Position numbers and translations under genes: made by a program
Assembly (NCBI GenBank): GCA_944327425.1
Contig: CALVHJ010000001.1
Location: 1-32,637, forward strand
DNA: 32,637 nt
DNA from: an uncultured Bacilli bacterium
Lineage (GTDB): Bacteria; Bacillota_I; Bacilli_A; RF39; UBA660
Reading direction: 5' to 3'
Notes under the pieces: model-generated
Told to the model about the DNA's origin: nothing
What the model saw: the letters and a program-made list of their open reading frames with translations, nothing else
Databases searched by the model: none
Part shown: one piece after another, positions 1 to 30,404 of the stretch
Layout: each line of letters begins with the position of its first letter
Numbering within the stretch: the first letter of the stretch is position 1

Positions 1-1
1 A

Positions 2-973
2 TATGATTGGTATGATAATGATATAACTGAAGAGAGTAATTGTGGTGCAGTATATTATGATTCCAATTATGAAATATATTACACTATGATAGAGGAAGTA
101 GGAAGTGGTACATATAGCGAAATCCCTGGCAAAACGGGTATATACGAGGGTGAAGACGATGATGGAACGACTTACTATTGGAGAGGAAATGTAGATAATA
201 ACTGGGTATCGTTCGCGGGATTCTATTGGAGAATCGTTAGGATTAACGGAAACGGAAGTATAAGACTTATCTATAGTGGTAATTCCACTAGTGGACCAGT
301 AACAATAGGCGAAGATACTCAAATAGGAACAAGTGCATTTAATAGTTCAAATGATGATAATGCCTATGTAGGATTTATGTATGGAAGTATAGGTGCAAGT
401 AGCTATGCTGAGACTCATGCTAATGTCAATAATAGTACCATATTAAATACATTAAATACATGGTATTTAAATAATATTCAAAATGCCGGATATTCATCAT
501 ATATAGATGTAGACTCTGGATTCTGTAATGATCGAACATTATATAATGGAACAGGAATTGGAACAACATATACTGTATATGCATCAGTTGAAAGAATATG
601 GACAACATATCAACCAACATTTAAATGTCAATCTAGTAATGATTTATTCACAACTAGTAATTCAAGTAATGGAAATAGAGCATTAACATATCCGATAGGA
701 CTTATTACAGCAGATGAAGAAGTGTATGGTGGCTTTTCAGTTAATGGAGGAACAACAAGCAATTATCTTTATACAGGAGAGGTTTATTGGACAATGTCTC
801 CGTATGGCTTTAACACAGGCTATGTTAGCGTGTTATCCGTGTGGTCGCCTGGCACCCTCTACAACGTCGGCGTGACTGGCACGTTCGGAGTGCGTCCTGT
901 CATCAATATATCACCTAATGTTAGAATAACTGGTTCAGGTACAATACAAGACCCTTATGTAGTGCAAACTTAA
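2..973 (+). CDS. Lectin-like surface protein, 5' end cut by the window edge; paralogue of 19215..20504
   Basis: The frame of ORF 86..973 stays open back to nt 2. Blocks shared with the paralogue: DGTTYY, FAGFYWRI(V/I)R(I/V)NG.GSIRLIY, IGTS.FNSS, YVGFMY, GFCNDRT, YPIGLITADE, YWTM(S/T)P, G(V/I)RPVIN. The C-terminal YW..SP...GVRPV layout recalls DUF1566/DUF6273-type C-type-lectin-fold modules (from memory, not searched). Confidence 0.7.
   Translation, partial: YDWYDNDITEESNCGAVYYDSNYEIYYTMIEEVGSGTYSEIPGKTGIYEGEDDDGTTYYWRGNVDNNWVSFAGFYWRIVRINGNGSIRLIYSGNSTSGPVTIGEDTQIGTSAFNSSNDDNAYVGFMYGSIGASSYAETHANVNNSTILNTLNTWYLNNIQNAGYSSYIDVDSGFCNDRTLYNGTGIGTTYTVYASVERIWTTYQPTFKCQSSNDLFTTSNSSNGNRALTYPIGLITADEEVYGGFSVNGGTTSNYLYTGEVYWTMSPYGFNTGYVSVLSVWSPGTLYNVGVTGTFGVRPVINISPNVRITGSGTIQDPYVVQT
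818..904 (+). other. Adenine-depleted GC-rich codon patch; candidate DGR variable region
   Basis: Counted by hand: A=11, T=24, G=27, C=25 in 87 nt. 19 of 29 codons lack adenine and 14 of 29 end in C. Arg is CGT here but AGA/AGG/CGA elsewhere in the ORF. No template repeat or RT lies in the window. Confidence 0.4.
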
Positions 974-1028
974 TTACTTGCCTATGCCACTTTATCCTTT
1001 ACGTGTAGGCAAGATATATATTTACTTT

Positions 1029-1051
1029 GGAGTAGTTTATCTGCTCCTTTT
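1029..1051 (+). terminator. Rho-independent terminator after the lectin-like gene
   Basis: GGAGTAG-tttat-CTGCTCC stem (7 bp, one G.U pair) followed by TTTT. Confidence 0.5.
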
Positions 1052-1078
1052 AAATTATTTAAAAACATAACTGTTAAG

Positions 1079-2053
1079 TTATGCTTTATTAATAAGAAAA
1101 TCTACTAATATATTAGGATCTTTATGATTAATTGCTATATCATAAATAATATTTATAATTGGCATTTTAATCTTTCTATTTTTTGTTAATCCTTTAATAG
1201 AGAGTAGGGTATAATAACCTTCTGTTGTATTATTATTTAAATATTCATTTATTTCTTCTTCACTTTTTCTTTCACCAAGTAATTTCCCAAATCTATAGTT
1301 TCTACTCTTAGGTGAAGATGCTGTAAGCATTAAATCACCAATCCCTGCAAAAGACATAATTGTTTTAGGGTTACATTCCATTTTTTCCAGTAATTCTTTA
1401 ATATCATGCATTGATTCAGTAATTAAGAAAGCTCTAGTTGATTCACTAAAACCTAAACCATCAAGCATACCTGATGCTATAGCTATAACATTTTTAATAC
1501 TACCACAAATTTGTGTACCATATAAATCTCTATTCTCTCTTAATTTAACTCTTTTATTACATAAAGCTAAACTAGTAAATTTAAAAGCTTTTTTAGTTGT
1601 AACAGAAGCAGATAAAGCCGCTGGTTCATTATTAATTAAATCTACAGCAAAAGTAGGACCAGATATTACACATATATGTTTAGCTTTCAATTCACTTCTA
1701 ACTATATCAGATAAAAATGAATAAGTATCATTTTCTATTCCTTTTGATGCTATACATAATGGTATTAACGGATTATAATATTTTTTCATATTACTACATG
1801 TTACTCTAACATATTTAGCCGATGTTGCTAAAACTACTAATTCAACGTTTTCTAACGCTTTTTTTAAATCACAAGTAATCTTAATACCCTTAGGTATTTT
1901 TGCTTCTGTAATCGGCTTTAAATCATGAAATTCCTTAAAATGTTTAGCCAGATTCTCATTTTCTGTCCACATTATTACTTTATGACCATTACTAGCCATA
2001 ATAAGACTTAAAGAAACACCATAAATTCCTGTTCCAATAACACCAATATTCAT
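1079..2053 (-). CDS. gpsA: NAD(P)H-dependent glycerol-3-phosphate dehydrogenase
   Basis: N-terminal Rossmann motif IGVIGTGIYG. GSIKNVIAIASGMLDGLGF and GIGDLMLT blocks match the GpsA family. The start overlaps the rarA stop (TAATG). Confidence 0.75.
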   Translation of the reverse strand: MNIGVIGTGIYGVSLSLIMASNGHKVIMWTENENLAKHFKEFHDLKPITEAKIPKGIKITCDLKKALENVELVVLATSAKYVRVTCSNMKKYYNPLIPLCIASKGIENDTYSFLSDIVRSELKAKHICVISGPTFAVDLINNEPAALSASVTTKKAFKFTSLALCNKRVKLRENRDLYGTQICGSIKNVIAIASGMLDGLGFSESTRAFLITESMHDIKELLEKMECNPKTIMSFAGIGDLMLTASSPKSRNYRFGKLLGERKSEEEINEYLNNNTTEGYYTLLSIKGLTKNRKIKMPIINIIYDIAINHKDPNILVDFLINKA

Positions 2054-3249
2054 TATTCACTCCTCATTTCATCATATAATTTATTTATATTAGTTTCATA
2101 TTTATTATTCTTTTTTATATAATATTTTTTATTCTTTAATTTATCAGGCATATACTCTTGTTTAACATAATCATTTTTATAATTATGGGGATAAACATAA
2201 AGAGGGGACCCATCAATAATATGTTTAGGAATACTACCAGCAAGTCCTTTATTAATATCATTTATCGCTGCATCAATTCCTAAATAAGTACTATTACTCT
2301 TAGGGGATAAAGCCATTTCCGTAACCACTTGCCCCAAAGGTATTCTCGCCTCTGGTAATCCAACCAATTCCGCCGCATGTATAGCTGCCATAACCTTAGG
2401 ACCAATCCCCGGATTAGCAAGTCCTATATCTTCATAAGCAATAACACTCATTCTCCTATATATACTATCTAAATCACCTGCTACAATAAGCCTAGCTAAA
2501 TAATGTAGAGCTGCATCAACATCACTTCCTCTAATAGACTTTTGAAAAGCACTCAAAACTTGATAATGCCCATCTTCATCTTTATCATGAAAAAACACCG
2601 GCTTATTATTAATTTTTTTTACTTCTTCAATTGTTACATTATGATTATCTGTTGCATAATAGGCAACTTCCAAGGTATTTAATGCCGATCTAAAATCACC
2701 TGATGAAAGAGTAGCAATATATTTTAAAGTTTCCTCATCAATTTTTAAATCCGGTAAATACTCATAAGCTTTCTTCATACCCAAAACAATATCATTAACA
2801 CTTAATTCTTTTAATTCATATATCACACATCTACTTCTAATCGCCGGATTAATTTTATGATAGGGATTAGAAGTTGTAAGTCCTATTAAAATAATTAAAC
2901 CTGATTCAATATGAGGTAATAATATATCTTGTTTATCTTTATTCATCCGATGAATCTCATCAATAACTAATATCATTTCTCCATACATTTTAGCTTCCTC
3001 TATCGCTATATCAAAATCAGCTTTATTATTTGTTGTCGCATTTAAAAACTTAGATCGAATATTAAGTTCTTTAATTAAAGCATTAGCAATACTTGTCTTT
3101 CCAATTCCTGGTTTTCCATATAAAATCATCGAAAAAATTTTGCCATTTCTAACCAAATTAGTTAAAACTTTACCTTCACCGATTAAATGCTTTTGTCCTA
3201 CAACTTCATCTAGTGTTTTAGGCCTTAATTTATTTGCTAGTAATTCCAT
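2053..3249 (-). CDS. rarA: Replication-associated recombination protein A (MgsA/RarA AAA+ ATPase), copy 1
   Basis: Walker A GKPGIGKTS, Walker B VIDEIHR, and MgsA lid block HYQVLSAFQKSIRGSDVDAALHYLARL. The track start at 3258 is GTG. The ATG at 3249 lies 5 nt after AGGTGA and gives MELLANKLRP. Confidence 0.8.
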   Translation of the reverse strand: MELLANKLRPKTLDEVVGQKHLIGEGKVLTNLVRNGKIFSMILYGKPGIGKTSIANALIKELNIRSKFLNATTNNKADFDIAIEEAKMYGEMILVIDEIHRMNKDKQDILLPHIESGLIILIGLTTSNPYHKINPAIRSRCVIYELKELSVNDIVLGMKKAYEYLPDLKIDEETLKYIATLSSGDFRSALNTLEVAYYATDNHNVTIEEVKKINNKPVFFHDKDEDGHYQVLSAFQKSIRGSDVDAALHYLARLIVAGDLDSIYRRMSVIAYEDIGLANPGIGPKVMAAIHAAELVGLPEARIPLGQVVTEMALSPKSNSTYLGIDAAINDINKGLAGSIPKHIIDGSPLYVYPHNYKNDYVKQEYMPDKLKNKKYYIKKNNKYETNINKLYDEMRSE

Positions 3250-3361
3250 ATTCTTCACCTGTAATTTAATTATATCATTTTTTTCCTAATAATAGTATAA
3301 GATACAATTGTACGTATGTCAATATTTATTTTTTTGTGATATAATTATTATAGGTGATAAT

Positions 3362-4279
3362 ATGAATTGTAAAGAATTAGAAGAAGTATATAAAACTAAT
3401 CATGAATTAGCTCAATATATTAATGAATATTTAAATACAGAGTATAACACTAGCAAAAACACCATAACTTCATATGCTACAGATATTTGTTTATTAGCCA
3501 AATACTATCCCCATAAAAACATTAAAAATTTAAAAAAAGAAGATATCCAAGAATATTTACGTCTTCAAAATAAATCTAGCAAAACCAAAGCTCGTTATTT
3601 AACATCTATCAATAATTATTATAAATATTTAATTTATAATAACGTCATAAATATAAATCCTTGTGATGGTATTAAAATGCCTAAACTAGAAAAAAAATTA
3701 CCTGATTATTTAACTATCGAAGAAGTAAATAATCTCTTAGATATTCGCTCTAGTTCTGCATATGATTTACGGAATAAAGCTATGCTTGAAGTATTATATG
3801 CTACCGGTATGCGTATAAGCGAATTATGTAATTTAACAATGAGTAATTTATTTTTAGAAGATGCACTTATTAAAGTATTTGGTAAAGGTAGCAAAGAAAG
3901 ATTAGTACCTATTAATGATATAGCTATTAATGCTTTAGAAGAATACTTAAAATTTGGTCGTAATGAACTTTTAGGAACTAAAGACAGTGAATATGTTTTT
4001 ATTAGTTCTAGACACACTAAAATAACTAGACAAGCTTTCTTTAAATACCTAAAAAAATTATGCGTAGAAAAGGGAATAAAAAAGAATATAAGCCCTCACA
4101 TTCTAAGACATTCCTTTGCTACTCATCTTCTTAATAATGGAGCTGATTTAAGAGTTGTCCAAGAACTTTTAGGTCACAGTGATATATCTACAACTCAAAT
4201 ATATACCCACTTATCTAATGAAAAACTAGAGCAAGAATACGATAAACATCCTTTAATGCACGAAAAAAGCCACCATTAA
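3362..4279 (+). CDS. Tyrosine recombinase, XerC/XerD family
   Basis: C-terminal catalytic block HILRHSFATHLLNNGADLRVVQELLGHSDISTTQIYTH and N-terminal SAM-like core-binding region. The track start at 3308 is TTG. The ATG at 3362 follows AGGTGA. Confidence 0.8.
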   Translation: MNCKELEEVYKTNHELAQYINEYLNTEYNTSKNTITSYATDICLLAKYYPHKNIKNLKKEDIQEYLRLQNKSSKTKARYLTSINNYYKYLIYNNVININPCDGIKMPKLEKKLPDYLTIEEVNNLLDIRSSSAYDLRNKAMLEVLYATGMRISELCNLTMSNLFLEDALIKVFGKGSKERLVPINDIAINALEEYLKFGRNELLGTKDSEYVFISSRHTKITRQAFFKYLKKLCVEKGIKKNISPHILRHSFATHLLNNGADLRVVQELLGHSDISTTQIYTHLSNEKLEQEYDKHPLMHEKSHH

Positions 4280-4293
4280 GTCGTGGCTTTTTT
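4263..4293. terminator. Bidirectional rho-independent terminator
   Basis: AAAAAAGCCAC-cattaagtc-GTGGCTTTTTT. The A-run and T-run flank the stem, so it can act for xer (+) and for the small minus-strand ORF. Confidence 0.6.
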
Positions 4294-4294
4294 A

Positions 4295-4414
4295 CTAGCG
4301 AGATTCTCTATTAGCTTTAGAACTTCTTTCGCTTCTAGAGTTTCTAGATTCGCTTCTTGAATTTCTACAATTCTTACTATTTCTAGAGTTTTTATTTTCT
4401 CTATTATTTTTCAT
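4295..4414 (-). CDS. 39-aa highly basic Arg/Ser/Asn-rich peptide (not in the ORF track)
   Basis: ATG lies 8 nt after GGGAGGG. Translation: MKNNRENKNSRNSKNCRNSRSESRNSRSERSSKANRESR, ending at TAG TAA. It lies between the helicase stop and the terminator at 4263..4293. Confidence 0.35.
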   Translation of the reverse strand: MKNNRENKNSRNSKNCRNSRSESRNSRSERSSKANRESR

Positions 4415-4486
4415 TATTTTCCCTCCCACTATTATTATGGTTAAAGATACCTAATTCATTCTTAAATAATGATGGTAATAATTGGC

Positions 4487-7400
4487 TTATATCTTAGAAG
4501 ATAACCCTTTATTAGTAGGATGCAAAACCGGGTACTTTCCTTTAGTTTGAAACAAATATTCCTTATCGATTAAATAATATATTATTTGTTCAAGATATTT
4601 TGTACTAATATTATGATATAAACCAAAATAAGGGGATAAATCTAAACCATTTTCTCTTATTTTTTTAGAGTTAGATCCTCTAAATATTTGAATATATGTC
4701 GTAACGCCAAAAAATTTCTTTTCACTTACTTGATTAATACAATTTAAAATATTTTGGATCATAGAGGCTTCATTATCTAAGAATGTATCTATATATTCTT
4801 TTTTAGGACTGTGTTCCACCATATTTTCTTGATAATTGTAATGATGCATCCGATAATAATTTCTTTTAGAAATAAATTTAGCACAACCACTACGATTAGG
4901 CTTATAATTTGTACATCCCAAAAAGAAAGTGTGTAAATTACGATTTTCTTTTACTATTAAATAGCCATCCTGACACATATTACATTTTAGAATTGCCATT
5001 TTCTCGCCTTTTAAATTATTTGTCATAAACCCACATAATTCTGGTTCGTTTGTACAAATATAAAGCACCATTCCCAAACCATATTTATATCTTCTTTGAA
5101 GGGGATACCCACAAATAGGGCAAGTATATTTTTTATCATTTCTAACTTCATCATTCCAATTACCTTTTAAAACAATGTTTTTATAATCATTTTTAAGTTC
5201 CAAAAGAAATTCTGAAGGATTTGCCTCAGGGGCTATAAAGAAAACTCTATTTTTAGTTCGTGTCATAGCTACATAAAATAATCTTCTTTCCTCTGCATAT
5301 AAAATTCCTTCATCTTTTTTTATGACAAAATCTAAAACTGGATCATCTTCAATTTTTGATGGAAAACCATACATTTCATTTTTTCCATTTATAACAATTA
5401 CATTATCATACCCTAATCCCTTTGAAGAATGAACAGTCATAAAAGTAATATTTAAATAGGGGTATTTTAGTGATTTTAACTTACCTTTACTACTGTATTC
5501 AAACAATCCTGTTTTCTCTAAATGATCAGCATCAAAGCCAAACCTACCTAACACTAATATTTTTTCATCTCTAAAATTCTTATGTTCTTCTTGATCATAT
5601 TTTTTAATATCATCTAAAGCATATTCTAAGGCTTTTGCTATATTATAATTTCTACCAGCCTTATTATTATCATAAGTTTTCTTATAAGAGCTATCATATG
5701 TATAGATTATTACAGGATCTTTAATAGTTTTAGGTGATTTTAGAGTTTTTTTAATTTGATTATGATTTTTTTGAACAAAATTACCAGCAATATCAATTAT
5801 TTCTTGACTATTACGATAAGTGTTTTCAATTTTTAATAATTCCCCATATCCCATTTTTTCTTTAAACTTCGTAAATAATTCAATATCTGAACCACTAAAA
5901 GCATAAATAGACTGCCAATCATCTCCAACTGTCATAATTTTCGCCTCGGTAATGTCACTCAAAGCTTTAGTTAAATCAAAACGTTGCTTAGATATATCTT
6001 GATATTCATCGACAATAATATATTTAAAACCTAAATAATTTTTCTTCTCTTTAGCTTCTTTTAAAAGTTTAGCGGACTCATTTATCATATCACAAAAATC
6101 TATCATATTATTTTCTTTTAAATATTTTTGATATTCTAAATAACAGCTACTACATATCTTTAAAAACAATTGTGTCCGAACATTTTTAGTTTTACGACTC
6201 ATTTTATCAAAATCACTATAAATATATCCGTTTACTTTAAAATTAGAGATAAATCGACATATCAAAGAAATAAGTTTGCGTATATATCTATTTTCTTCGG
6301 TAGCTAAAAGATGTTCCATTACTTCCTTATCATCTTTTCTTTTCAAAACAAACCCATTTTTAATTAATAAATCCTCAAGATGTTCTATAATCGATTTACC
6401 ATCATTATATTTAGAAAAAGTATAAATTAAATTGGTATGATGAATATTATGAAGTCTTATTTTATCATTAATACATTTTTTATATTGTTCTAACTTTTCT
6501 GAGGCAAAAAAAGAACTGTTTCCATTTTCGCTAATTCCAAAATGTTCTAAATAAAAGGTAAGGTTATTTTGTTTAATAATAAAATCCGGTGTATAAGGTT
6601 TATTACTATTTTTAAGTTTATAAGGATATACTGGCTCATATTGATAATCGATATTATGTAAATAAAGATAATTAGCAATTATAACTTCTTCTCTAGATCT
6701 TACAAGTTCATTGGCAATAGTAATATTTCGATTAGTTCGCTTATTAATTATTTCTTTATGATAATCATTTAATTCACTTTTTAAAGTAGAGTAGGGGTTG
6801 TTAAGACTCTGGAAGAACGCTACAAGATCATCATCATTCATATAATCAACATCAAAATAAGAGGCAAAAAACAATATAATAGTTCTTAACAATGACTCAT
6901 TTTTAATTATTTTTTCTTTAAAATAGTCTCCTATAACATAATAAATTTTAGCTTCACTTACAACGGTAGGTTCTTTTGGACTATCCTTTTTTAATATAGA
7001 ATAACCTGTTGCATGAAAAGTAGTAATAGGGCAATTTATATTAAGAGCTTTATTTATTTTTTCTTTTAATTCTAAAACAGCTTTATTAGTAAAAGATATA
7101 ATTAATATTTCCTCAGGTTTAATTTTCTTTTTTTCAATTAAATATTTAACTTTAGCAGCAATAGTAGTAGTTTTACCGGCTCCTGCACCAGCAATAACTA
7201 AAGTATAATCTTCATCACTCAAAACAACTTTTCTTTGCTCGTTATCTAAAATAATATTAGGATCAACATCTTTAAGTATTTCATCTAAATAAGTTTTATT
7301 TGTATTTAGCATTTTTCTAATATAATCATTATTTCTGTTAGTCATTAAACTTTCAATATTAGCATAAACATTAATAAACTTAAAAGCATCATCTACCAAA

Positions 7401-7579
7401 ATATTATTTTTATGACAATATTCAGTCAAAATATCCTTATTTTTTAGAAAAACTAACTCTTCATATGTTTTTCTAAATTTATTTAAAAGATTTAAATATT
7501 TTTTATGGGATACGTAATCCGGAATATCTACTAATGTTTTTTGTTCTCTTATAAATCTTAATATTTCCTCTTTATCCAT
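4487..7579 (-). CDS. Helicase IV (HelD)-like UvrD-family SF1 helicase with nuclease-like insert, two Zn-ribbons and a C-terminal winged helix
   Basis: SF1 motifs AGAGAGKTTT, DEYQD, GDDWQSIY, YRNS, VHSSKG and YVAMTRT. The insert is REEVIIANYL...YTPDFII...YLEHFG. Cys clusters are CPICG...CTNEPELCG and CNMCQ...CTNYKPNRSGC. The tail resembles a RecQ-type wHTH. Confidence 0.8.
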   Translation of the reverse strand: MDKEEILRFIREQKTLVDIPDYVSHKKYLNLLNKFRKTYEELVFLKNKDILTEYCHKNNILVDDAFKFINVYANIESLMTNRNNDYIRKMLNTNKTYLDEILKDVDPNIILDNEQRKVVLSDEDYTLVIAGAGAGKTTTIAAKVKYLIEKKKIKPEEILIISFTNKAVLELKEKINKALNINCPITTFHATGYSILKKDSPKEPTVVSEAKIYYVIGDYFKEKIIKNESLLRTIILFFASYFDVDYMNDDDLVAFFQSLNNPYSTLKSELNDYHKEIINKRTNRNITIANELVRSREEVIIANYLYLHNIDYQYEPVYPYKLKNSNKPYTPDFIIKQNNLTFYLEHFGISENGNSSFFASEKLEQYKKCINDKIRLHNIHHTNLIYTFSKYNDGKSIIEHLEDLLIKNGFVLKRKDDKEVMEHLLATEENRYIRKLISLICRFISNFKVNGYIYSDFDKMSRKTKNVRTQLFLKICSSCYLEYQKYLKENNMIDFCDMINESAKLLKEAKEKKNYLGFKYIIVDEYQDISKQRFDLTKALSDITEAKIMTVGDDWQSIYAFSGSDIELFTKFKEKMGYGELLKIENTYRNSQEIIDIAGNFVQKNHNQIKKTLKSPKTIKDPVIIYTYDSSYKKTYDNNKAGRNYNIAKALEYALDDIKKYDQEEHKNFRDEKILVLGRFGFDADHLEKTGLFEYSSKGKLKSLKYPYLNITFMTVHSSKGLGYDNVIVINGKNEMYGFPSKIEDDPVLDFVIKKDEGILYAEERRLFYVAMTRTKNRVFFIAPEANPSEFLLELKNDYKNIVLKGNWNDEVRNDKKYTCPICGYPLQRRYKYGLGMVLYICTNEPELCGFMTNNLKGEKMAILKCNMCQDGYLIVKENRNLHTFFLGCTNYKPNRSGCAKFISKRNYYRMHHYNYQENMVEHSPKKEYIDTFLDNEASMIQNILNCINQVSEKKFFGVTTYIQIFRGSNSKKIRENGLDLSPYFGLYHNISTKYLEQIIYYLIDKEYLFQTKGKYPVLHPTNKGLSSKI

Positions 7580-7640
7580 AACTCTTCACCCCTAAAATTT
7601 GCTATTAATATAACATATAATTGATAGATTTGCAAATAAT

Positions 7641-7655
7641 TGTTAAATTTTAACA
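7641..7655. promoter_or_regulatory. Perfect 7-1-7 palindrome, candidate Fur-family (Zur-like) operator upstream of zupT
   Basis: TGTTAAA-T-TTTAACA lies about 22 nt upstream of the zupT ATG and overlaps a possible TTGATA-N17-TAAATT promoter. Fur, PerR and Zur boxes have 7-1-7 architecture. Confidence 0.35.
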
Positions 7656-7676
7656 TAAGATTTAATGGGTGATAAT

Positions 7677-8429
7677 ATGCAGTTAGCTATATCCTTACTT
7701 ATTTCTACTATTGCGGGCTTATCAACTATGCTAGGGGCTTTAGTAATATTTTTTAAATTTAAAGAAAATAATATTAACAAGTTTATAACCTTTTCCTTAG
7801 CATTTTCTTTAGCTATAATGATAGGAATTAGTATAACTGATTTAATACCCGAATCTACATATAAGCTTCTTTTAAATTATGGAATAGAAAAGGGGATAAT
7901 TTATTCCTTAATTACTTTTATTTTAGGAATAATAACCATTAAATATTTACATCAGTTAATGAATAAAACAGAACAAAAAAATGATTTATATAAACTCGGA
8001 ATATTAAATATGTTAGCTTTAATTTTACATAATTTCCCAGAAGGAATAGCTACTTTTATGAGTTCCTATAAAGACACAGAACTAGGCATTAAACTAGCTA
8101 TTGCCATTGCTTTTCACAATATTCCTGAAGGAATATCTATAGCCGTTCCCATTTATTATGCTACCAAGTCTAAAAAAAGTGCCATAATAAAAACGTTTCT
8201 ATCAGGCATTGCTGAACCCATAGGAGCCTGTTTTGCCTACATATTCTTAAGTAAATATATAACAGACACTTTAATTAGTATCATTCTTTTATTAGTTGGC
8301 GGTATAATGATAACTCTTGCCATAGAAATAATATTACCTAAAGCTAAAAAATATAATTTAAATAAATATTTATATCTAGGATTACTAATAGGAACAGTAC
8401 TTATTTTATTTAACTATTTTTGCTTTTAA
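7677..8429 (+). CDS. zupT: ZIP-family zinc transporter ZupT
   Basis: Multi-pass membrane protein with the paired ZIP motifs HNFPEGIATF and HNIPEGISIAVP. The ATG at 7677 follows GGGTGA. Confidence 0.75.
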   Translation: MQLAISLLISTIAGLSTMLGALVIFFKFKENNINKFITFSLAFSLAIMIGISITDLIPESTYKLLLNYGIEKGIIYSLITFILGIITIKYLHQLMNKTEQKNDLYKLGILNMLALILHNFPEGIATFMSSYKDTELGIKLAIAIAFHNIPEGISIAVPIYYATKSKKSAIIKTFLSGIAEPIGACFAYIFLSKYITDTLISIILLLVGGIMITLAIEIILPKAKKYNLNKYLYLGLLIGTVLILFNYFCF

Positions 8430-9015
8430 TAGTAATATCATTTAATGTTTTATTAATTCTATTAATTACATATTGTTTATCATTAGGATAACAAGTATAA
8501 AAAGTAAGCATAGGAATATTGCAATCCTGTAAAATTTTCTTAACTTTTAAATCACGATCTCTTCTTTTAAAAGTATTATGTGTTTTATCATTTAATTCAA
8601 TTAATAATAATAAATTATAATTTTTATCTAAAATTGCAAAATCTATATTTCTAAACAATTCATTATGGTATTTACCAGTATTTTTTTGAATAACCGCAGC
8701 CAAATTAAGCTGTGGAATAATAATGTAATTTTCCTCTAATTCTCGAAACTTCGAAAAAAACTGAAACTCTGCAGGCGTCATTATATTTTTTGTGCTATAT
8801 TTTGCTATATTTGATTCTAAAAGAGAAGGGGATGGATTATTTTCTTTATTTTTAGCAATATCTTTAGATAATTTGTATCTAATAAAGGAAAGAATTATAA
8901 TACAAATTATAAAAGTCAAAAATTCATCTTTATATATATCAAAATTAAATAAACAATAAAATGCAGTTAAACCTAAAATAACTATTAGAAAATTACATAT
9001 ATCTTTTTTCACCAT
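8410..9015 (-). CDS. Membrane-anchored DUF2726-like (PD-(D/E)xK nuclease-fold) protein
   Basis: Two N-terminal hydrophobic segments, then MTPAEFQFF...IIPQLNLAAV...IDFAILDKN...LIELND..H, which resembles DUF2726. The ATG at 9015 follows AGGTGGTG. The 3' end overlaps the zupT 3' end. Confidence 0.55.
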   Translation of the reverse strand: MVKKDICNFLIVILGLTAFYCLFNFDIYKDEFLTFIICIIILSFIRYKLSKDIAKNKENNPSPSLLESNIAKYSTKNIMTPAEFQFFSKFRELEENYIIIPQLNLAAVIQKNTGKYHNELFRNIDFAILDKNYNLLLLIELNDKTHNTFKRRDRDLKVKKILQDCNIPMLTFYTCYPNDKQYVINRINKTLNDITIKSKNS

Positions 9016-9384
9016 TAAACACCACCTAAAACTCATTATATTATAATATATAAAAAGTTTAATTGCAAATCAAAAGAATGAAGTTAACATAATATATATT
9101 TAGCGAACTAAATTATTTAGAAGTTTTATAGTTAAATTTTTATAGCATAATACCATTAAACATTAATTAAAACGTTTTAAACCATGTTACGATTTAAGCC
9201 TAAATCAAACAAAATAAAATTAAAAATTCTTTTAATATCTTAGTATTTAATATAATTTAAAATTATAACCTTATTTTTATAATTAAATAAGGTTAAATAC
9301 ACGCGTATATATCATATTTAATATATATAATAAGGTTATATATTATATATTTATTTAAATTAAAAACGACTTATTAAAAGTCAT

Positions 9385-10188
9385 TTATTTTAAATCACTC
9401 GAATACCAATAGTAATTTCCATCATTATCTAATTTAAATACATGTTTATAGACAGAGCCATATTTATAAATAAATTCTGAATCAATCTCTAAATCGTCAT
9501 TATTTTTTAGATCATCAGAGCATTCAGTTATTTCATCACTATTTGTATTAGAAGGGTAACACTTGTTATCTGATAGTCGTAAATAATAATCAGTTATAAC
9601 AATATCATTATTTAATTTTTCTACCGCTTTATCAATTAATCTATATACAGTGGCTTCTGGCATTAAAGAAAACACGAAAGTCTCAGCATTACCACAATAA
9701 TAATATTCCCCATCTAAATAACAAGCATCACTATCATTTATATAAAAACTTTTGTCATCTGGTATTTCTTCTCCATAAATCTTCTCGTAAGATTTAGCTA
9801 AATCACTAGCAGCAATAATTTGATAATCACAATCCTCATCCCCTTCTTCTGCTGCTAAAGTTGTCCCCTGTCCTACCATACACAATGAAATATCATTGTC
9901 ATTTTTAGAACTAACAGCAGCAGTTGAAAGAGAAATACTGTTTTCATCTAAGGCATAGTATGCCATACAAAGTTTATTTTCATTTTTTATCGTATCATAA
10001 TTTACTTCTGTTCCACTATAAGAATTTAAGCCTCCGCAGTGATATATATCAACTTCTCCTAAATAACTATATAACTCCTTTATTTGTGTACTTTGAGTAT
10101 CAAGATTTTTATCACCCAAAAAGATAATTAACAAAATTATAATAAGCACAAATAAAACACCAATGCCACCTATTATTTGTTTTTTCAT
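9385..10188 (-). CDS. Hypothetical N-terminally anchored, Cys-containing extracytoplasmic protein
   Basis: 267-aa ORF with the single TM segment IGGIGVLFVLIIILLIIFL and an acidic D/E/Y-rich ectodomain. The start lies 2 nt after the stop of the upstream HTH gene. Confidence 0.5.
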   Translation of the reverse strand: MKKQIIGGIGVLFVLIIILLIIFLGDKNLDTQSTQIKELYSYLGEVDIYHCGGLNSYSGTEVNYDTIKNENKLCMAYYALDENSISLSTAAVSSKNDNDISLCMVGQGTTLAAEEGDEDCDYQIIAASDLAKSYEKIYGEEIPDDKSFYINDSDACYLDGEYYYCGNAETFVFSLMPEATVYRLIDKAVEKLNNDIVITDYYLRLSDNKCYPSNTNSDEITECSDDLKNNDDLEIDSEFIYKYGSVYKHVFKLDNDGNYYWYSSDLK

Positions 10189-10190
10189 TT

Positions 10191-10967
10191 TTATACTTTT
10201 CTCGTTTCTATCTCAGCTATTTTTTCTAAAACTTCAGCAGCATTTTCTTCCGTCATAGAATCATAACCAAGTTCTCTTAAAGCTTGTATTTTAATAGTAT
10301 TTAACTGTTGTGTACGGCTTAATTTTTCTTCATTTTTCTGTTCTATTTCTTGAACAAAACGCTTATGACTATCTCTAAGCTTACTTCTACTTGCTCCACC
10401 ATTATTATAAAGGGTTAAAGCTGAAAACAAAATTCCTTCAAAAATAAATTGTTTTTCTTCATCAAAAGCATATTCATCTGGTTTAATAAAACCAGTAGTT
10501 TTAGACATATATCCTAAAATATATTTAATCTCCGGTACATTATCAACCGACTGCAACATATGATAAAAATAATTTATAATGTTATAATTTTCACTCTTCT
10601 TATTTTCATCTAATAATTTTTCTTTTAATAGATAGTTAATATCAACAAGTAAAGTTTGACTATTTTTATCTAAACCATTCATATCAAAATAGCTATCCAT
10701 ATCATTAGTGTTTTTAACTCCTTGATTTAAACGATTTTCTACAGCCATTAAATAATCCGTTGTTATTTTAATACTTTTAATACCATCTTCTGTTCCATCT
10801 TCAATATCAAGCAATTTAAATAATAATATCTTCTTTTCTTTAGGCCATTTATTTAAGTCTTCTAACTCTAAATAATTATAAACCATTTGTCTTGATACAT
10901 TCAAATATTTAGCAAGTCTAACTTTAGAAATACCTAATTCTTGTAATAATTCATTTAAACTATTCAT
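10191..10967 (-). CDS. HTH-domain protein (XRE-like N-terminus) of unknown function
   Basis: N-terminal LQELGISKVRLAKYLNVSRQMVYNYL helix-turn-helix. An AAGGAG RBS precedes the ATG. Confidence 0.55.
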   Translation of the reverse strand: MNSLNELLQELGISKVRLAKYLNVSRQMVYNYLELEDLNKWPKEKKILLFKLLDIEDGTEDGIKSIKITTDYLMAVENRLNQGVKNTNDMDSYFDMNGLDKNSQTLLVDINYLLKEKLLDENKKSENYNIINYFYHMLQSVDNVPEIKYILGYMSKTTGFIKPDEYAFDEEKQFIFEGILFSALTLYNNGGASRSKLRDSHKRFVQEIEQKNEEKLSRTQQLNTIKIQALRELGYDSMTEENAAEVLEKIAEIETRKV

Positions 10968-11040
10968 AACTATCTCCTTTTTACTTTACACCTTAATTAT
11001 AAATTACTTAACACTTATATGTCAAGTATTAGTTAAGAAT

Positions 11041-12144
11041 CTAGGCTAAATACCATAATTTTTCGCTATTTTTATAAACGTCTTTTATAAATCCACAGCC
11101 CAAACATTTATCTTTATCATAAAAAACACATGCTTGACCCGGAGTAACTGCCTTACATCCCTTAGGATATTTAATTTTTATTTCATTTTCGGAAATACTT
11201 TCAATTTCAATAGGAACATCTTCACCTCTGTATCTAAATTTCGCCATTAATTTGTTTGGTAACTTTTCAATCAAATTAATATTATCTAAAGTACAAGCAT
11301 CACTATATAAATACTCACTATCACCATAAGCTATATACAAAATATTTTTAGCAACATTTTTACCACAAACATAATGTCTCATTTGTTCTCCACTTAACCC
11401 AACATTTCTTCTTTGGCCAATAGTATAGTTCATCAAACCAGTATGTCTACCAACCACTTTTTTCGTTTTTACATCGACAATATCCCCTGGGTTAGGTTTT
11501 AAATAATTTTTAATAAAATCTTGATAATGTCTTTCCCCTATAAAACAAATTCCGGTTGAATCTTTCTTTTTAGCAACATTTAATCCGGCTTTAAGAGCTA
11601 TTTCTCTTACTTCTGGTTTTGTATATTCTCCCAGTGGAAAAAGCACGTTTTCTAATTGCTCTTTGCTAATATCAGCTAAAAAATAAGACTGATCTTTATT
11701 TAAATCTTTTGCTTTATATAAAGAGCCATTAATATTTCTAGCATAATGCCCTGTAGCTATATATGAAGCACCTAATTTTAAAGCTTCTTTTTTAAATAAG
11801 TCAAATTTAATAAACTTATTACAAAGCATATCCGGATTAGGAGTTCTCCCCTTTTTTAATTCTTCTAAAAAATATGTAAAGACATAATCCCAATATTCTT
11901 TAATAAAATCAACCCGATGGAGTTTTATACCTAAAATCCTACAAGTTTCTAAAGCATCATTATAATCTTGTTCTTGAGGACATATTGCTTCATTCAAATT
12001 AGGATTACCTAAGATATCATTATTTACCATTGAATCCCAATTTCTCATAAACAAACCTTCAACTAAATATCCTTCCTTTTTAAGTAAAAGAGCTGCTACG
12101 GCTGAATCAACACCACCACTAATACCAACTATAACTTTCTTCAT
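11041..12144 (-). CDS. mnmA: tRNA-specific 2-thiouridylase MnmA
   Basis: PP-loop SGGVDSAVAA, plus the NPDMLCN and DQSYFL blocks. The track start at 12153 is GTG. The ATGs at 12150 and 12144 are more likely starts. Confidence 0.85.
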   Translation of the reverse strand: MKKVIVGISGGVDSAVAALLLKKEGYLVEGLFMRNWDSMVNNDILGNPNLNEAICPQEQDYNDALETCRILGIKLHRVDFIKEYWDYVFTYFLEELKKGRTPNPDMLCNKFIKFDLFKKEALKLGASYIATGHYARNINGSLYKAKDLNKDQSYFLADISKEQLENVLFPLGEYTKPEVREIALKAGLNVAKKKDSTGICFIGERHYQDFIKNYLKPNPGDIVDVKTKKVVGRHTGLMNYTIGQRRNVGLSGEQMRHYVCGKNVAKNILYIAYGDSEYLYSDACTLDNINLIEKLPNKLMAKFRYRGEDVPIEIESISENEIKIKYPKGCKAVTPGQACVFYDKDKCLGCGFIKDVYKNSEKLWYLA

Positions 12145-12213
12145 AAACATCACACTATTATTTTACTCTATTTCTTCTAAAAAGTCCAATAATTCCGTAT
12201 GTAACTTTATCTT

Positions 12214-14304: not shown

Positions 14305-14992
14305 AAACTGAATCTCCTATACCACTAACATTTAAAATATCTTCAATCTTCTTAAATTCACTTACATTATTTCGATAATCGATTATTGCTTGGGCTTTAG
14401 CCTCTCCTATTCCCGATAGTTCCATCAAGCTTGTCTTATCAGCAGTATTTATATTAATTAAGCTATTATTATTTTGATTAGTTGTATCACTCGTATTATT
14501 TACATTATTTTCACTTATAATAATACTTTCTTTATTTTCTGTACACTGTGTAATTGTATAGCTAGGAACTTCACAAACATTACTACTAGTATTATCTTCT
14601 TTAGTCATTTCTTTTGTTTTATAAACATAAATAACCATCTCATCACTTACTTTTTTACTTAAATTCAAATTATTTTGATAAGCATCTTTTGTAAAACCTC
14701 CTGCTAAAGCAATTACATCATTTACAATACTGCCTAAACTAACCTGATAAACACCCGGATTATTAACTGCTCCTTTAATATCAACATTAATTATCGCCTC
14801 ACTTATATCTTGTTCTTCATCATCATCTTCTTGCAATATACTCTCATTACTTAAAGATAAATCACTTTCTAAAACATTATCATTAGTCTGCCGTAATATA
14901 GCATAAATAGCTAACCCCATACTAACAACTAATAAAAAACCAATAATAATATCTTTAAGATACTTTTTTAATATAAACAATATATTTTCCAT
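14273..14992 (-). CDS. comEA: Competence protein ComEA (SLBB plus helix-hairpin-helix DNA receptor)
   Basis: N-terminal TM, then GAVNNPGVYQV (SLBB). The C-terminus has tandem HhH motifs: INTADKTSLMELSGIGEAKAQAIIDYR and ILNVSGIGDSVFAQIKDYI. A strong AGGAAAGGAG RBS precedes the start. Confidence 0.8.
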   Translation of the reverse strand: MENILFILKKYLKDIIIGFLLVVSMGLAIYAILRQTNDNVLESDLSLSNESILQEDDDEEQDISEAIINVDIKGAVNNPGVYQVSLGSIVNDVIALAGGFTKDAYQNNLNLSKKVSDEMVIYVYKTKEMTKEDNTSSNVCEVPSYTITQCTENKESIIISENNVNNTSDTTNQNNNSLININTADKTSLMELSGIGEAKAQAIIDYRNNVSEFKKIEDILNVSGIGDSVFAQIKDYITV

Positions 14993-15035
14993 ATATCAAT
15001 CTCCTTTCCTAGTTTGCATTATAACAAATTAATTT

Positions 15036-19214: not shown

Positions 19215-20504
19215 CTACAATAATACAAACGGATCCGAAATTGTTCCTGTTCCCGTAAATTCTGTTGTAGCTTTTAAATTTATTACAGGTCTAATGCCAG
19301 ATGTATAATAAACTCCCGCCGAACTTAGTCCATCATCAGGACTTCCAGCAGAATATAAGCGAAATACTGACTGATTTGAAGATGGTGTCATCGTCCAATA
19401 AGTACTACCAGTATATAAATAAAAGGCTGTATTATTAGTATATTCATATCCACCTGCATACACTATTTCATCGGCTGTTATTAAACCAATAGGATATTTT
19501 AAGGCTTTATTTCCTTTATTACTTGATGAGGTTGTGAACAAATCAAGATCATTATTACATTTAAATGATGGACTATCATTTACTGATATTCTTATATAAG
19601 CTCCATAATAAGTACGTGTCGTTCCAGTCCCACCTTCTCCGTTACTACTCGAATAACTTGTACTGGGCGTTCTATCATTACAGAATCCCGCATTTATATC
19701 AATATTATCTTCATATGATAATAAATTATTTTCATACCAATTATCTAACTCTTCCTTAATAGTACTACTTGTTCCTACCCCATGCACACTTCCTTCAGTA
19801 TACATGAATCCTACATATTCATTTATATTAGATGAGCTATTAAAAGTGCTTGTTCCTATTTGTCCATTTCCATCTGGAGTTGTCCCTTGATAAATTAAAC
19901 GAATTGATCCATCTCCGTTAACCCTTATTATTCGCCAATAGAATCCGGCAAAATATACCCAATTATCAGTTGGATTTCCTGCAAAGTAATATGTTGTGCC
20001 GTCATTATCGCTAGCCTCAAAAACTATACTGGTAGTCTCGGTTGAATAAATTGTACTAAAATCGGTACGAGTACTATGACTATAGTTTTTAATTGCATCT
20101 GCTAATAAAGGCTTAGATTCATCAAAATATAAATAACATTTACTCTTTTTTTGTAAATTAGCTATAACATGTTCACCATTGTCATTTGTATATAATCTAG
20201 CATTATTATCTTTATTAATTCCATCTACTGTACAATAGCTTTCGCTTTCATTTATTACATACCCACTACTAGGCATAACATCTATACTTACATATTCTCC
20301 CGCTTCATTTTCTTGATACATAGCTAGTACTTTTAGATCATAGACTTTATAGTTTACAGTACTATTAACAATTGGCACACTAGCTGTACTCCTATACTTT
20401 GCTCTCGTAAAATTTAAAACTACTGCACTAATAATTAGTACTGCAAAAACTCCAAAAATAATATTTCTCTTTAAATTATTTTTCTTTAATACCTCGAATT
20501 TCAT
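19215..20504 (-). CDS. Full-length lectin-like surface protein with N-terminal signal anchor; paralogue of 2..973
   Basis: AGGAG RBS. TM segment IIFGVFAVLIISAVVLNF. Shares all conserved blocks with ORF 2..973. Its C-terminal module uses ordinary AT-rich codons. Confidence 0.7.
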   Translation of the reverse strand: MKFEVLKKNNLKRNIIFGVFAVLIISAVVLNFTRAKYRSTASVPIVNSTVNYKVYDLKVLAMYQENEAGEYVSIDVMPSSGYVINESESYCTVDGINKDNNARLYTNDNGEHVIANLQKKSKCYLYFDESKPLLADAIKNYSHSTRTDFSTIYSTETTSIVFEASDNDGTTYYFAGNPTDNWVYFAGFYWRIIRVNGDGSIRLIYQGTTPDGNGQIGTSTFNSSSNINEYVGFMYTEGSVHGVGTSSTIKEELDNWYENNLLSYEDNIDINAGFCNDRTPSTSYSSSNGEGGTGTTRTYYGAYIRISVNDSPSFKCNNDLDLFTTSSSNKGNKALKYPIGLITADEIVYAGGYEYTNNTAFYLYTGSTYWTMTPSSNQSVFRLYSAGSPDDGLSSAGVYYTSGIRPVINLKATTEFTGTGTISDPFVLL

Positions 20505-20682: not shown

Positions 20683-20904
20683 ATGATGAAATTAATAGCC
20701 AACGACTATGAACCCCATGAAACTTTTAAAATATTAAGAGAATGGACTGGCTTAACTCAAGAAGAATTAGCCAAAGAACTAAATCGTCGTAGTAGACACG
20801 GAATTAAAAATATAGAAACAGGCAACGCCAGATTCTACTATGAAACAATTCTAGAAATATGTAAGAAACATAATATTAAAATAATATTTGAAAAAGATAA
20901 CTAA
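20683..20904 (+). CDS. Small XRE-family HTH regulator (73 aa)
   Basis: AGGAGG RBS. LREWTGLTQEELAKELNRRSRHGIKNIETG helix-turn-helix. Divergent from the lectin-like paralogue. Confidence 0.6.
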   Translation: MMKLIANDYEPHETFKILREWTGLTQEELAKELNRRSRHGIKNIETGNARFYYETILEICKKHNIKIIFEKDN

Positions 20905-20910
20905 ATCGCT

Positions 20911-28259: not shown

Positions 28260-28286
28260 TGTTAGTGCTAATATAAAAATGTAGGA
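28260..28286 (+). repeat. IS21 left inverted repeat
   Basis: TGTTAGTGCTAATATAAAAATGTAGGA. A second ATAAAAATGTAGG copy lies about 25 nt inward. Confidence 0.8.
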
Positions 28287-28384
28287 AAATGATTAAATAA
28301 AAATGTAGGTTTTCCAACATAGATATATTAGCACTTTTTAAATAATAAAAAATATGATACAACTCTAATAAGGAGTTGAAATAA

Positions 28385-29587: not shown

Positions 29588-29602
29588 AAAGAGGTAAAGA
29601 AT

Positions 29603-30364: not shown

Positions 30365-30404
30365 ATAAAAATGTTGGTTTTCCTACATTCTTATATTGTC
30401 ATAA

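What the first reader, a model, noticed from the sequence alone, without database searches (positions are those of the whole stretch)
797..1013. Adenine-depleted, GC-rich codon patch at the C-terminus of a lectin-like surface protein: candidate DGR variable region
Seen directly: nt 818-904 (29 codons, GYVSVLSVWSPGTLYNVGVTGTFGVRPVI) hold only 11 A in 87 nt, with 52 G+C. The surrounding gene and window are strongly AT-rich. 19 of 29 codons contain no adenine and 14 of 29 end in C (GGC ACC CTC TAC AAC GTC GGC run). Arg is CGT here, while all seven other Arg codons in this ORF are AGA, AGG or CGA. Val is GTG, GTC or GTT and never GTA. The patch lies exactly between the family-conserved YWTMSP and GVRPVI motifs. 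Established knowledge: DGRs mutate only template adenines. Their VR/TR pairs therefore avoid adenine at scaffold codons and carry AAC-derived NNC codons at variable sites, and the VR sits at the extreme C-terminus of C-type-lectin-fold targets. Inference: this is a DGR target VR. The paralogue at 19215..20504 encodes the same module with ordinary codons (att aga cct gta ata aat for IRPVIN), so protein constraints alone do not explain the composition. Caveats: no RT, Avd or template repeat is in this window. The gene is cut by the left window edge, so any cassette would lie upstream or elsewhere. A gene-conversion or HGT tract from a high-GC homologue is the alternative explanation. An 8-bp hairpin (CTTGCCTA-N21-TAGGCAAG, 977..1013) follows the stop codon.
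Basis: partly seen in the sequence, partly recalled or inferred. Interest (0 to 1): 0.8.

Follow-up and report, generated by a model that had tools for sequence, protein, structure and literature searches.

The report
DGR-written variable region, template absent
The G+C-rich, adenine-poor patch at the end of this gut-bacterial surface-protein gene has the sequence signature of a diversity-generating retroelement (a reverse-transcriptase system that rewrites one short stretch of a gene), but its template and enzyme are not in this stretch of genome and the patch is identical in all four assemblies available.

Summary
Nt 818-904 hold 11 A and 52 G+C in a 27% G+C window, and this is the only such stretch in 32.6 kb. 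GC3 is 72% in the patch against 18% in the rest of the ORF.

The gene encodes a 700-aa secreted protein of a very large paralogous family in uncultured gut Bacilli ('Mycoplasma sp. CAG:776'-like). Its C-terminal domain is DUF6273-like (C-type-lectin-like), a known DGR target domain.

About half of 64 family copies carry the same kind of patch at the same place. In four related loci the patch has a cognate AAC-rich template repeat with adenine-only mismatches (21/22, 16/17, 13/13), next to a bAvd-like gene and a reverse transcriptase.

The window's patch (core 795-897) has the length and scaffold of one template class. It keeps 38/43 conserved non-A template positions and differs at 7/11 conserved A positions (p=0.001).

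So it is a DGR variable region by origin. No cognate template, spacer RNA or RT lies in the window plus 5.4 kb, or in the collections I could scan. The patch is invariant across four assemblies, whereas control targets vary only in their VR. It is either served from elsewhere or stranded.

New member of a known kind. Related loci show arrays of 8-11 alternative templates, which may be new.

The parts
2..973 (+). 3' 972 nt (323 codons plus stop) of the target gene. The full gene encodes 700 aa, and its start lies about 1.13 kb left of the window.
   Evidence: ORF and translation. Full-length identical gene in L001:11081-13183(-), P0001. In homologues the N-terminal part matches Peptidase_M73/camelysin-like (10/22 members).
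197..910 (+). DUF6273-like (C-type-lectin-like) domain
   Evidence: AlphaFold model of nt 197-970: pLDDT 92.9, pTM 0.92. Foldseek finds phage DUF6273-domain proteins at E 3e-6 to 8e-4. The longer model hits the T. ramosa IgA protease (9qa6) at E 1.6e-4; its N-terminal domain is DUF6273 (PMC12402451). Pfam DUF6273 is hit by 5/22 family members at E<=0.01, but not by this protein itself.
795..897 (+). Variable-region core: the stretch homologous to template repeats of the 'GTCTCCGTAT...GGTGTGCGYCC' class
   Evidence: Unique G+C-rich, A-poor composition. Same length (31 codons) and same scaffold codons as TR units such as L087+3608. Of positions conserved in the TR class, 38/43 non-A positions are kept and 7/11 A positions are changed, Fisher p=0.001. 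On the model it spans the last beta-hairpins, residues ~200-234 of model me6ed19270834, with pLDDT above 90.
785..802 (+). YWTMSP motif. Family-conserved; the 5' boundary of template homology falls inside it.
   Evidence: Nearly invariant columns in alignments A1 and A2. TR homology in relatives starts at (AT)GTCTCCG.
887..904 (+). GVRPVI motif. Family-conserved; the 3' boundary of template homology falls at GTGCGTCC, nt 890-897.
   Evidence: Invariant P, V, I, N columns. TR/VR homology ends at GTGCGYCC(A) in relatives.
977..1013 (+). Hairpin after the stop codon; probably part of a terminator shared with the convergent gpsA gene, not a DGR element
   Evidence: RNA fold -14.8 kcal/mol, z=-2.06. 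A terminator-like hairpin with a T-run follows at 1029-1047. The hairpin is conserved in the L004 allele, and verified DGR targets also end with ordinary terminator hairpins.
19215..20504 (-). Paralogue of the same family (429 aa) whose equivalent segment has ordinary A+T-rich composition
   Evidence: Translation. Pfam DUF6273 E=0.018. Segment G+C 0.39, A 0.24.

Best explanation
The patch is a variable region (VR) laid down by a diversity-generating retroelement.

How this works in sister genomes, shown here: an RNA carrying a ~100-nt AAC-rich template repeat (TR) plus a structured spacer is copied by a DGR-type reverse transcriptase encoded next to a bAvd-like gene. Template adenines are miscopied, and the cDNA replaces the matching stretch at the C-terminal end of a DUF6273-like (C-lectin-like) domain of a secreted protein. 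Scaffold codons avoid adenine and are G+C-rich. Variable codons come from AAC or AAT. This gives exactly the composition seen at 795-897.

Inferred: the window's VR was written this way from a template of the 'GTCTCCGTAT...GTGCGYCC' class.

Not shown: where that template and the RT are now. They are not within the window or 5.4 kb to its left. The VR is identical in four assemblies.

I therefore read it as a VR that is currently static. It is either a remote target of a cassette elsewhere in the genome or, slightly more likely, a recently stranded VR that has not yet decayed to genomic A+T richness.
For: - Composition is unique in the window.
- 32 of 64 distinct family copies have a G+C-rich, A-poor patch at the same place, forming a continuum from G+C 0.64 down to 0.28.
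- Cognate TRs with adenine-specific mismatches occur in four related loci. L068: 21/22 mismatches at template A. L015: 16/17. L060: all core mismatches at A (in one search the non-A mismatches lie in the non-homologous 5' flank). L118: 13/13.
- RVT_1 reverse transcriptases score above the Pfam cut-off and bAvd-like genes lie beside them.
- The L118 target is 47% identical to this protein over the domain.
- The window VR matches the scaffold of a TR class, with mismatches concentrated at conserved template adenines: 7/11 against 5/43, p=0.001. It has the same 31-codon length as TR units such as L087+3608.
- Fold matches DUF6273 phage proteins, a published DGR target domain whose VR maps to its C-terminus (PMC11792537, PMC10743442).
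- One TR fits VRs on three contigs of one MAG, with 17-20 of 23-26 mismatches at template A. This is compatible with remote targets. Remote targets are acknowledged in the literature (PMC8144416).
Against: - No TR-like copy in the window or in L001, by blastn-short, by a 'same-or-A' scan, and by covariance model R1 (best E 1.7).
- No RT or Avd by tblastn or Pfam in the window.
- No cognate TR among about 45 TR units from relatives; the best has 13 non-A mismatches.
- Degenerate template patterns found nothing in JGI metagenomes or IMG/VR.
- The protein is identical in four assemblies, and its 90% cluster has one member. Two control targets differ between near-clonal assemblies at 6 and 14 residues, all inside the VR.
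- 5/43 scaffold positions differ from the class consensus, against 0-2 in four sister VRs. Two or three of these changes are towards A/T.
- In most verified relatives the TR lies within about 0.5 kb of the VR.
Confidence: 0.85

Rival explanations
1. It is an actively diversifying remote target. A TR array with bAvd and RT sits elsewhere in this genome and still rewrites 795-897 in trans. The four assemblies simply sample one clone.
For: Composition is as extreme as in VRs with intact cassettes. One TR fits VRs on three contigs in MAG BRZ_DI__bin68. TR-spacer units are often dispersed far from any RT. Window, L002 and L003 are nearly clonal: 0-2 SNPs, and none in the first 4.7 kb against L001.
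Against: Control targets vary in the VR even between assemblies identical elsewhere. No variant of this protein exists in the 5.8-billion-cluster collection. The multi-contig example shows 6-7 non-A mismatches per VR, and its Avd gene is cut by a transposase, so it may itself be decaying.
Confidence: 0.35
2. It is a relic. The VR was written by a DGR that has since been lost from, or silenced in, this lineage, and it is now evolving like ordinary coding sequence.
For: No local TR or RT. Invariance across four assemblies. The family shows a continuum of patches fading to genomic composition, as expected from decay. 5/43 scaffold departures, partly towards A/T. The paralogue in the same window has lost or never had the patch.
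Against: G+C 0.55-0.60 and 15% A remain close to values in serviced VRs. The scaffold departures may only reflect a different template variant; TGG and CGT variants exist among the TRs.
Confidence: 0.5
3. It has a non-DGR origin: a gene-conversion or horizontally acquired tract from a high-GC homologue, or local selection on codons or mRNA structure.
For: No TR in the window. A sharp compositional island can in principle come from foreign DNA.
Against: The same scaffold occurs in dozens of paralogues and in non-coding template units of equally low-GC genomes. The boundaries coincide with TR homology boundaries. Mismatches to the template class are biased to adenines. All homologues found are from low-GC gut Bacilli.
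Confidence: 0.03

Closest known systems
DGR target proteins with a DUF6273 domain (Faecalibacterium prophages Lelie, CP11, Roos, Pioen; 'tentaclin'-associated targets of gut phages)
   Same: The variable region maps to the C-terminal end of a DUF6273 domain that resembles a C-type lectin, and the VR forms surface beta-hairpins (PMC11792537, PMC10743442). The window's domain matches phage DUF6273 proteins by fold, and its VR lies on the last beta-hairpins.
   Different: Here the protein is chromosomal and cellular, with a camelysin/TasA-like N-terminal region. It belongs to a family with many paralogues per genome. Its sequence is only marginally recognised by the Pfam model. No cassette is adjacent.
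Bordetella phage BPP-1 DGR (Mtd, TR, Avd, bRT) and Treponema denticola TvpA
   Same: Adenine-specific mutagenic retrohoming into a C-terminal VR of a lectin-fold ligand-binding protein. AAC-type template codons. The bAvd-like plus RT gene pair is present in relatives.
   Different: No detectable sequence or Foldseek match to Mtd or TvpA. The relatives' cassettes hold arrays of several different templates, each with its own spacer. No IMH or cruciform was identified next to the window's VR.
DUF1566 / Legionella Lcl C-terminal domain type DGR targets (e.g. LdtA)
   Same: Similar motif logic: YW..S ... variable stretch ... vRpV at the domain end. Lcl-C (8q4e) is the top but non-significant PDB hit for the trimmed domain. 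Phage DUF1566 proteins appear among weak BFVD hits.
   Different: The similarity is not significant (E 0.4). The domain is about 240 aa with large insertions.
DGRs acting on remote targets
   Same: The VR has no RT or TR nearby. In a related MAG one TR fits VRs on three contigs. The literature notes that such targets are missed by surveys (PMC8144416).
   Different: For the window the remote cassette is hypothetical, because the rest of the genome could not be read.
N-terminal DUF6273 domain of the Thomasclavelia ramosa IgA protease ThomasA (PDB 9qa6)
   Same: The only significant solved-structure neighbour (E 1.6e-4). Also a secreted protein of a gut Bacillota organism (PMC12402451).
   Different: Attached to an M64 peptidase, not to a camelysin-like region. 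Not known to be diversified. The alignment is poor (TM 0.32, 12% identity).

Membership tests
DGR variable region (target of mutagenic retrohoming) | A cognate template repeat in the same genome that differs from the VR almost only where the template has adenine | not testable with these tools
   None in the window or 5.4 kb to the left. None in JGI metagenomes or IMG/VR by degenerate pattern. None among about 45 TR units of relatives. The rest of this genome is not available; the species is absent from genome contigs (best hit 57%).
DGR variable region (target of mutagenic retrohoming) | Adenine-biased mismatches relative to the template | tested here: inconclusive
   Tested only against the consensus of a TR class from other genomes: 7/11 conserved A positions differ against 5/43 conserved non-A positions, Fisher p=0.001. 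This is suggestive but is not a cognate pair.
DGR variable region (target of mutagenic retrohoming) | DGR-type reverse transcriptase (and usually Avd) in the locus or genome | tested here: not met
   No RT or Avd in the window or L001 by tblastn with three RTs and two Avds, or by Pfam. Both are present next to homologous targets in L068, L049, L015, L060, L118 and L119. The genome-wide test was not possible.
DGR variable region (target of mutagenic retrohoming) | VR at the C-terminal end of a C-type-lectin-like ligand-binding domain | tested here: met
   Confident model (pLDDT 92.9). Fold matches to DUF6273 phage proteins. DUF6273 is described as C-lectin-like with a C-terminal VR. C-type lectins are enriched among the weak PDB hits.
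DGR variable region (target of mutagenic retrohoming) | Hypervariability confined to the VR among closely related strains or reads | tested here: not met
   Identical in the window, L001, L002 and L003; the 90% cluster has a single sequence. Controls: the L015 target cluster differs at 6 residues and the L060 target cluster at 14 residues, all within the VR. Read-level data are not available.
DGR variable region (target of mutagenic retrohoming) | Homology to VRs with a demonstrated cognate TR | tested here: met
   Same family, same position, same scaffold as VRs in L068, L015, L060 and L118.
Pfam DUF6273 (PF19789) | Score above the gathering threshold for the model | tested here: not met
   No hit for the window protein. 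The paralogue scores 15.3 bits against a cut-off of 23.5. 5/22 family members hit at E<=0.01, and some homologues carry a precomputed PF19789 hit. Membership rests on fold, so this is a remote relative.

The most novel reading that the evidence does not exclude
The window's VR is one of many paralogous targets of a DGR lineage that keeps libraries of alternative templates. These are tandem arrays of 8-11 different TR-spacer units beside one RT (L060, L118), plus dispersed 'orphan' units. One enzyme could then swap whole VR scaffolds, of different lengths, as well as mutagenise them, in cis and in trans. The VR at 795-897 would have been written from one such unit located elsewhere in the genome. 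I found no description of TR arrays in the searchable literature; only two-TR cases are reported (PMC6642488).
Probability: 0.35. Interest if true: 0.7.

Novelty: new member of a known kind. Interest (0 to 1): 0.5.

Why it matters
It assigns a mechanism, DGR retrohoming, to a hypervariable C-terminal module of a huge, unannotated surface-protein family in uncultured low-GC gut Bacilli. That family has more than 1,500 homologues and many copies per genome.

It also gives a practical marker. A G+C-rich, adenine-poor island in a 27% G+C genome flags present or past DGR targets even when the cassette lies on another contig, which metagenome surveys miss.

The family shows every stage from serviced to faded VRs, so it could be used to study the birth and decay of DGR targets.

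The multi-template arrays in sister genomes, if confirmed, would widen what a DGR can do.

Tried and rejected
- **Template in the window or left extension.** Repeat finder, blastn-short (word 7), a position-wise 'same base or A' scan, and a covariance model of the TR spacer all found nothing.
- **Collection scans for a template.** I used rigorous degenerate patterns (A stays A; G, C, T become R, M, W). The first pattern wrongly included VR-specific 3' bases. The corrected pattern also found nothing in JGI metagenomes or IMG/VR.
- **Scan with the conserved TR-end/spacer junction.** This returned 33 loci and about 34 unique TRs. None is cognate.
- **RT family search, to find the cassette of this species.** More than 4,700 homologues, too many to trace. 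One look-up gave a related cassette (L118) but with a different TR class.
- **Walking out of the window.** The right end is a transposase gene that occurs in unrelated contexts.
- **Hairpin at 977-1013 as a DGR cruciform.** Rejected. It lies about 80 nt beyond the VR, after the stop codon, and looks like a terminator.
- **The other low-A stretch at 20904-20993.** It is only the T/C-rich strand of a Lys/Glu-rich gene end and is not G+C-rich.
- **Sequence-level PDB and NCBIfam searches.** Empty.
- **High-GC donor hypothesis.** Rejected, as set out under the rival explanations.

Full report
**1. The observation**

The window is 27.0% G+C. Nt 818-904 contain 11 A, 27 G, 25 C and 24 T.

Only 0.015% of all 87-nt windows reach A<=11 or G+C>=52. 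The only cluster of windows with G+C>=48 is 794-924. The 200-nt profile rises to 0.47 there, against 0.2-0.33 around it.

In codon terms:
- 19/29 codons lack adenine, against 20% in the other 294 codons.
- 14/29 end in C, against 10%.
- GC3 is 72% against 18%.
- Arg is CGT only here.
- GTA is absent here although it is the commonest Val codon elsewhere.

**2. The gene**

The ORF runs off the left edge. An almost identical contig (L001) gives the full 700-aa product (P0001). On the far side it is flanked by an HTH gene, a ThiF-family gene and a DUF87 gene, and downstream by a convergent gpsA.

The window itself is ordinary chromosome: mgsA, a Xer-type recombinase, a UvrD/PcrA-like helicase, mnmA, comEC, comEA, lepA, spoIIIAH-like and GerM-like genes, plus IS elements at the right end.

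The protein has more than 1,500 homologues. All come from uncultured gut 'Bacilli/Tenericutes/Mycoplasma sp. CAG:776'-type MAGs, often with eight or more copies per MAG. N-terminal parts match camelysin/Peptidase_M73 in 10/22 members.

The C-terminal 240 aa give a confident AlphaFold model (pLDDT 92.9). Its significant structural neighbours are phage DUF6273-domain proteins, at E 3e-6 to 8e-4. The longer model also hits the Thomasclavelia ramosa IgA protease, at E 1.6e-4. The N-terminal domain of that protease is DUF6273 (PMC12402451).

C-type lectins and the Legionella Lcl/DUF1566 domain fill the non-significant part of the PDB lists.

Published work places DGR variable regions at the C-terminus of DUF6273 and describes the domain as C-lectin-like (PMC11792537, PMC10743442).

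At sequence level the Pfam model is met only marginally.

**3. The patch is a family feature**

In 64 distinct family copies I measured the segment between YW[TS]x[ST] and xRPVI. Values run continuously from G+C 0.64 / A 0.08 down to G+C 0.28 / A 0.34. The flanking background is 0.30-0.35 / 0.40.

Half of the copies have G+C>=0.45. The window's copy (0.55 / 0.17) sits in the upper third. Its paralogue at 19215-20504 (0.39 / 0.24) sits in the faded part.

The syntenic allele in a sister strain (L004, P0002; 77% identical, mosaic) also has a G+C-rich patch, but of a different sequence and one codon longer.

**4. Relatives have the full DGR machinery**

A 'same base or A' scan of every patch against all fetched loci found template repeats just downstream of the genes. 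Four loci carry complete cassettes.

| Locus | VR/TR mismatches at template A | Neighbouring genes |
|---|---|---|
| L068 | 21 of 22 | 114-aa Avd-like ORF; RVT_1 RT (45.7 bits, cut-off 29.6) |
| L015 | 16 of 17 | bAvd hit (28.4 bits, below the 40-bit cut-off); RT (59.3 bits) |
| L060 | all core mismatches | Avd-like ORF and RT, plus a TR array |
| L118 | 13 of 13 | bAvd, RT, small ORF, target, TR array |

The L118 target is 47% identical to the window protein over the domain.

As a population control, the 90% clusters of the L015 and L060 targets each contain sequences that differ at 6 and 14 residues respectively. All of these lie inside the VR and none outside it for the pair P0121/P0122.

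This family is therefore a genuine DGR target family.

**5. The window's patch carries the template signature**

Template homology in the nearest class starts at (AT)GTCTCCGTAT and ends at GGxGTGCGYCC. In the window this corresponds to 795-897.

Units of this class occur in nine places in the GTDB-derived loci, and a scan of JGI metagenomes found them in 33 stretches.

TR units such as L087+3608 have the same 31-codon length as the window's patch. They share every scaffold codon: TTT, AAC, GTG, GTG, TCG, GGC, CTC, AAC, GTG, ACG, GTG.

I compared the patch with the consensus of 20 unique in-register TRs. The window keeps 38 of 43 positions that are conserved and not A. It differs at 7 of 11 positions that are conserved A (Fisher p=0.001).

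This is what retrohoming from a sibling template would give. It rules out a foreign high-GC donor, because the scaffold is native to these 27-30% G+C genomes.

**6. What is missing**

The following were all searched and found empty:
- No second copy, TR-like stretch or spacer RNA in the window or in the 5.4 kb to its left.
- No RT or Avd.
- None of about 45 TR units from relatives is cognate; the best has 13 non-A mismatches.
- Degenerate patterns that any cognate TR must satisfy found nothing in JGI metagenomes or IMG/VR.

The species is not among the GTDB representatives, where the best hit is 57%. The rest of the genome could not be reached.

The VR, and the whole protein, is identical in the window and in three ENA assemblies from different samples. 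Two of the three are near-clonal with the window. L001 differs by 43 SNPs, all between 4697 and 10341. The protein's 90% cluster holds one sequence.

Five of 43 scaffold positions depart from the class consensus, against 0-2 in four sister VRs. All five are at third codon positions, and two or three are changes towards A/T. This may be early decay, or simply a different template variant.

**7. Interpretation**

*Shown:* the patch is real. It sits on the terminal beta-hairpins of a DUF6273-like domain. Homologous patches are written by DGRs. The window's patch has the class scaffold and adenine-biased departures.

*Inferred:* it was written by mutagenic retrohoming (about 0.85-0.9).

*Open:* whether it is still serviced.
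- For remote service: one TR in MAG BRZ_DI__bin68 fits VRs on three contigs, and many TR-spacer units lie far from any RT.
- Against: those three VRs carry 6-7 non-A mismatches each, and the Avd gene there is truncated next to a Mutator-family transposase. The window's VR is also frozen where controls vary.

I lean slightly to 'stranded or dormant' (about 0.5) over 'active remote target' (about 0.35).

The hairpin at 977-1013 lies after the stop codon and is followed by a terminator-like hairpin. It is conserved with the L004 allele. It is best read as a terminator for the convergent genes, not as a DGR cruciform.

**8. Comparison with the known, and novelty**

A DGR VR at the C-terminus of a DUF6273 or C-lectin-like domain is a known kind. 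The window adds a new member, in a cellular multigene family of uncultured gut Bacilli and without a local cassette.

The unexpected things are in the relatives:
- Tandem arrays of about 8 (L060) and about 11 (L118, L119) different TR-spacer units beside a single RT. The resident VR matches one unit.
- Dispersed or short-tandem 'orphan' units with a conserved, strongly covarying spacer RNA. 20 of 35 predicted pairs show compensatory changes. A covariance model built from them also weakly detects the L060 array units.

In the searchable literature I found only DGRs with two TRs (PMC6642488) and no description of arrays. That search is limited.

**9. Verdict**

Interest is moderate for the window's feature itself and higher for the template arrays it led to.

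Noticed in passing
L060:11017-13517 (array), with target 8837-10849, Avd-like ORF 13526-13921 and RT 13890-15032: Tandem array of 7.5-8 units of 334 nt. Each unit is a different template repeat (different length and scaffold) plus a conserved spacer, between the target gene and Avd/RT. The resident VR matches one unit (~11578-11705), with all core mismatches at template adenines. I found no description of such TR arrays in the searchable literature.
   Followed up: partly
L118:14041-18100 (and L119); cassette bAvd 9685-10032, RT 10001-11191, ORF 11206-11583, target 11662-13692: About 11 G+C-rich TR units at 350-400-nt spacing in a 4.7-kb stretch with no called genes, after a homologous target. 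The VR (13505-13616) matches the unit at 14440 with 13/13 mismatches at template A. Some other units are adenine-poor, as if they had themselves been mutagenised. The RT (P0144) is seen on 72 contigs.
   Followed up: partly
L052:2354-2506, L054:8285-8437, L057:8019-8171, L073 (four copies), L078:3120-3272, L012:7284-7441; L085-L117: Stand-alone TR-spacer units in intergenic DNA next to housekeeping genes (gltX, efp, a PBP gene), sometimes in short tandems (L099 x3; L087, L092 and L115 x2), with no RT within the fetched flanks. The spacer is a structured RNA: 20/35 predicted pairs show compensatory changes. A 5' 'GGGTTAATCT' looks complementary to a 3' 'AGATTAATCC', which would enclose the TR.
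   Followed up: partly
L009:9208-9327 (TR), with VRs at L009:8929, L016:4686 and L043:7460 (all MAG BRZ_DI__bin68): One TR fits VRs on three contigs (17-20 of 23-26 mismatches at A, 6-7 elsewhere). The Avd gene after the TR is cut to 60 aa and followed by a Mutator-family transposase gene (9700-10206). The cassette looks broken and the VRs look as if they are starting to decay.
   Followed up: partly
L068:5452-5820, L049:~6064-6348, L015:12701-12943, L118:11206-11583: A small ORF (~120 aa) with a MutS domain I-like N-terminus (Pfam E 1e-7) recurs inside these DGR cassettes (pairwise E 3e-9). It may be an accessory gene.
   Followed up: partly
L004:1717-3813 compared with window 2-973 / L001: The syntenic allele in a sister strain is identical for the first ~660 nt and in the 3' flank but 57-95% identical in between. 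Its VR has a different sequence and is one codon longer. This is a mosaic allele, presumably from recombination among paralogues.
   Followed up: partly
window 4697-10341: All 43 differences between the window and L001 (12 kb aligned) fall in this 5.6-kb stretch; there are none in 1-4696. This looks like a recombination tract between otherwise near-clonal strains.
   Followed up: no
window 28260-30431: IS21-type element: IstA-like (rve, Mu-transposase C-terminal domain) 28385-29587 and IstB 29603-30364, bounded by 61-nt inverted repeats (28260-28320 / 30371-30431).
   Followed up: partly
window 30998-32203: 401-aa protein with an N-terminal HTH_38 domain. The identical protein occurs in three unrelated contig contexts, so it is probably a transposase. 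This may explain why assemblies break here.
   Followed up: partly
window 2053-3258(-) and 25254-26576(-): Two MgsA-type AAA+ ATPase paralogues in one 32-kb window (about 75% identical DNA stretches, repeats D6 and D7).
   Followed up: no
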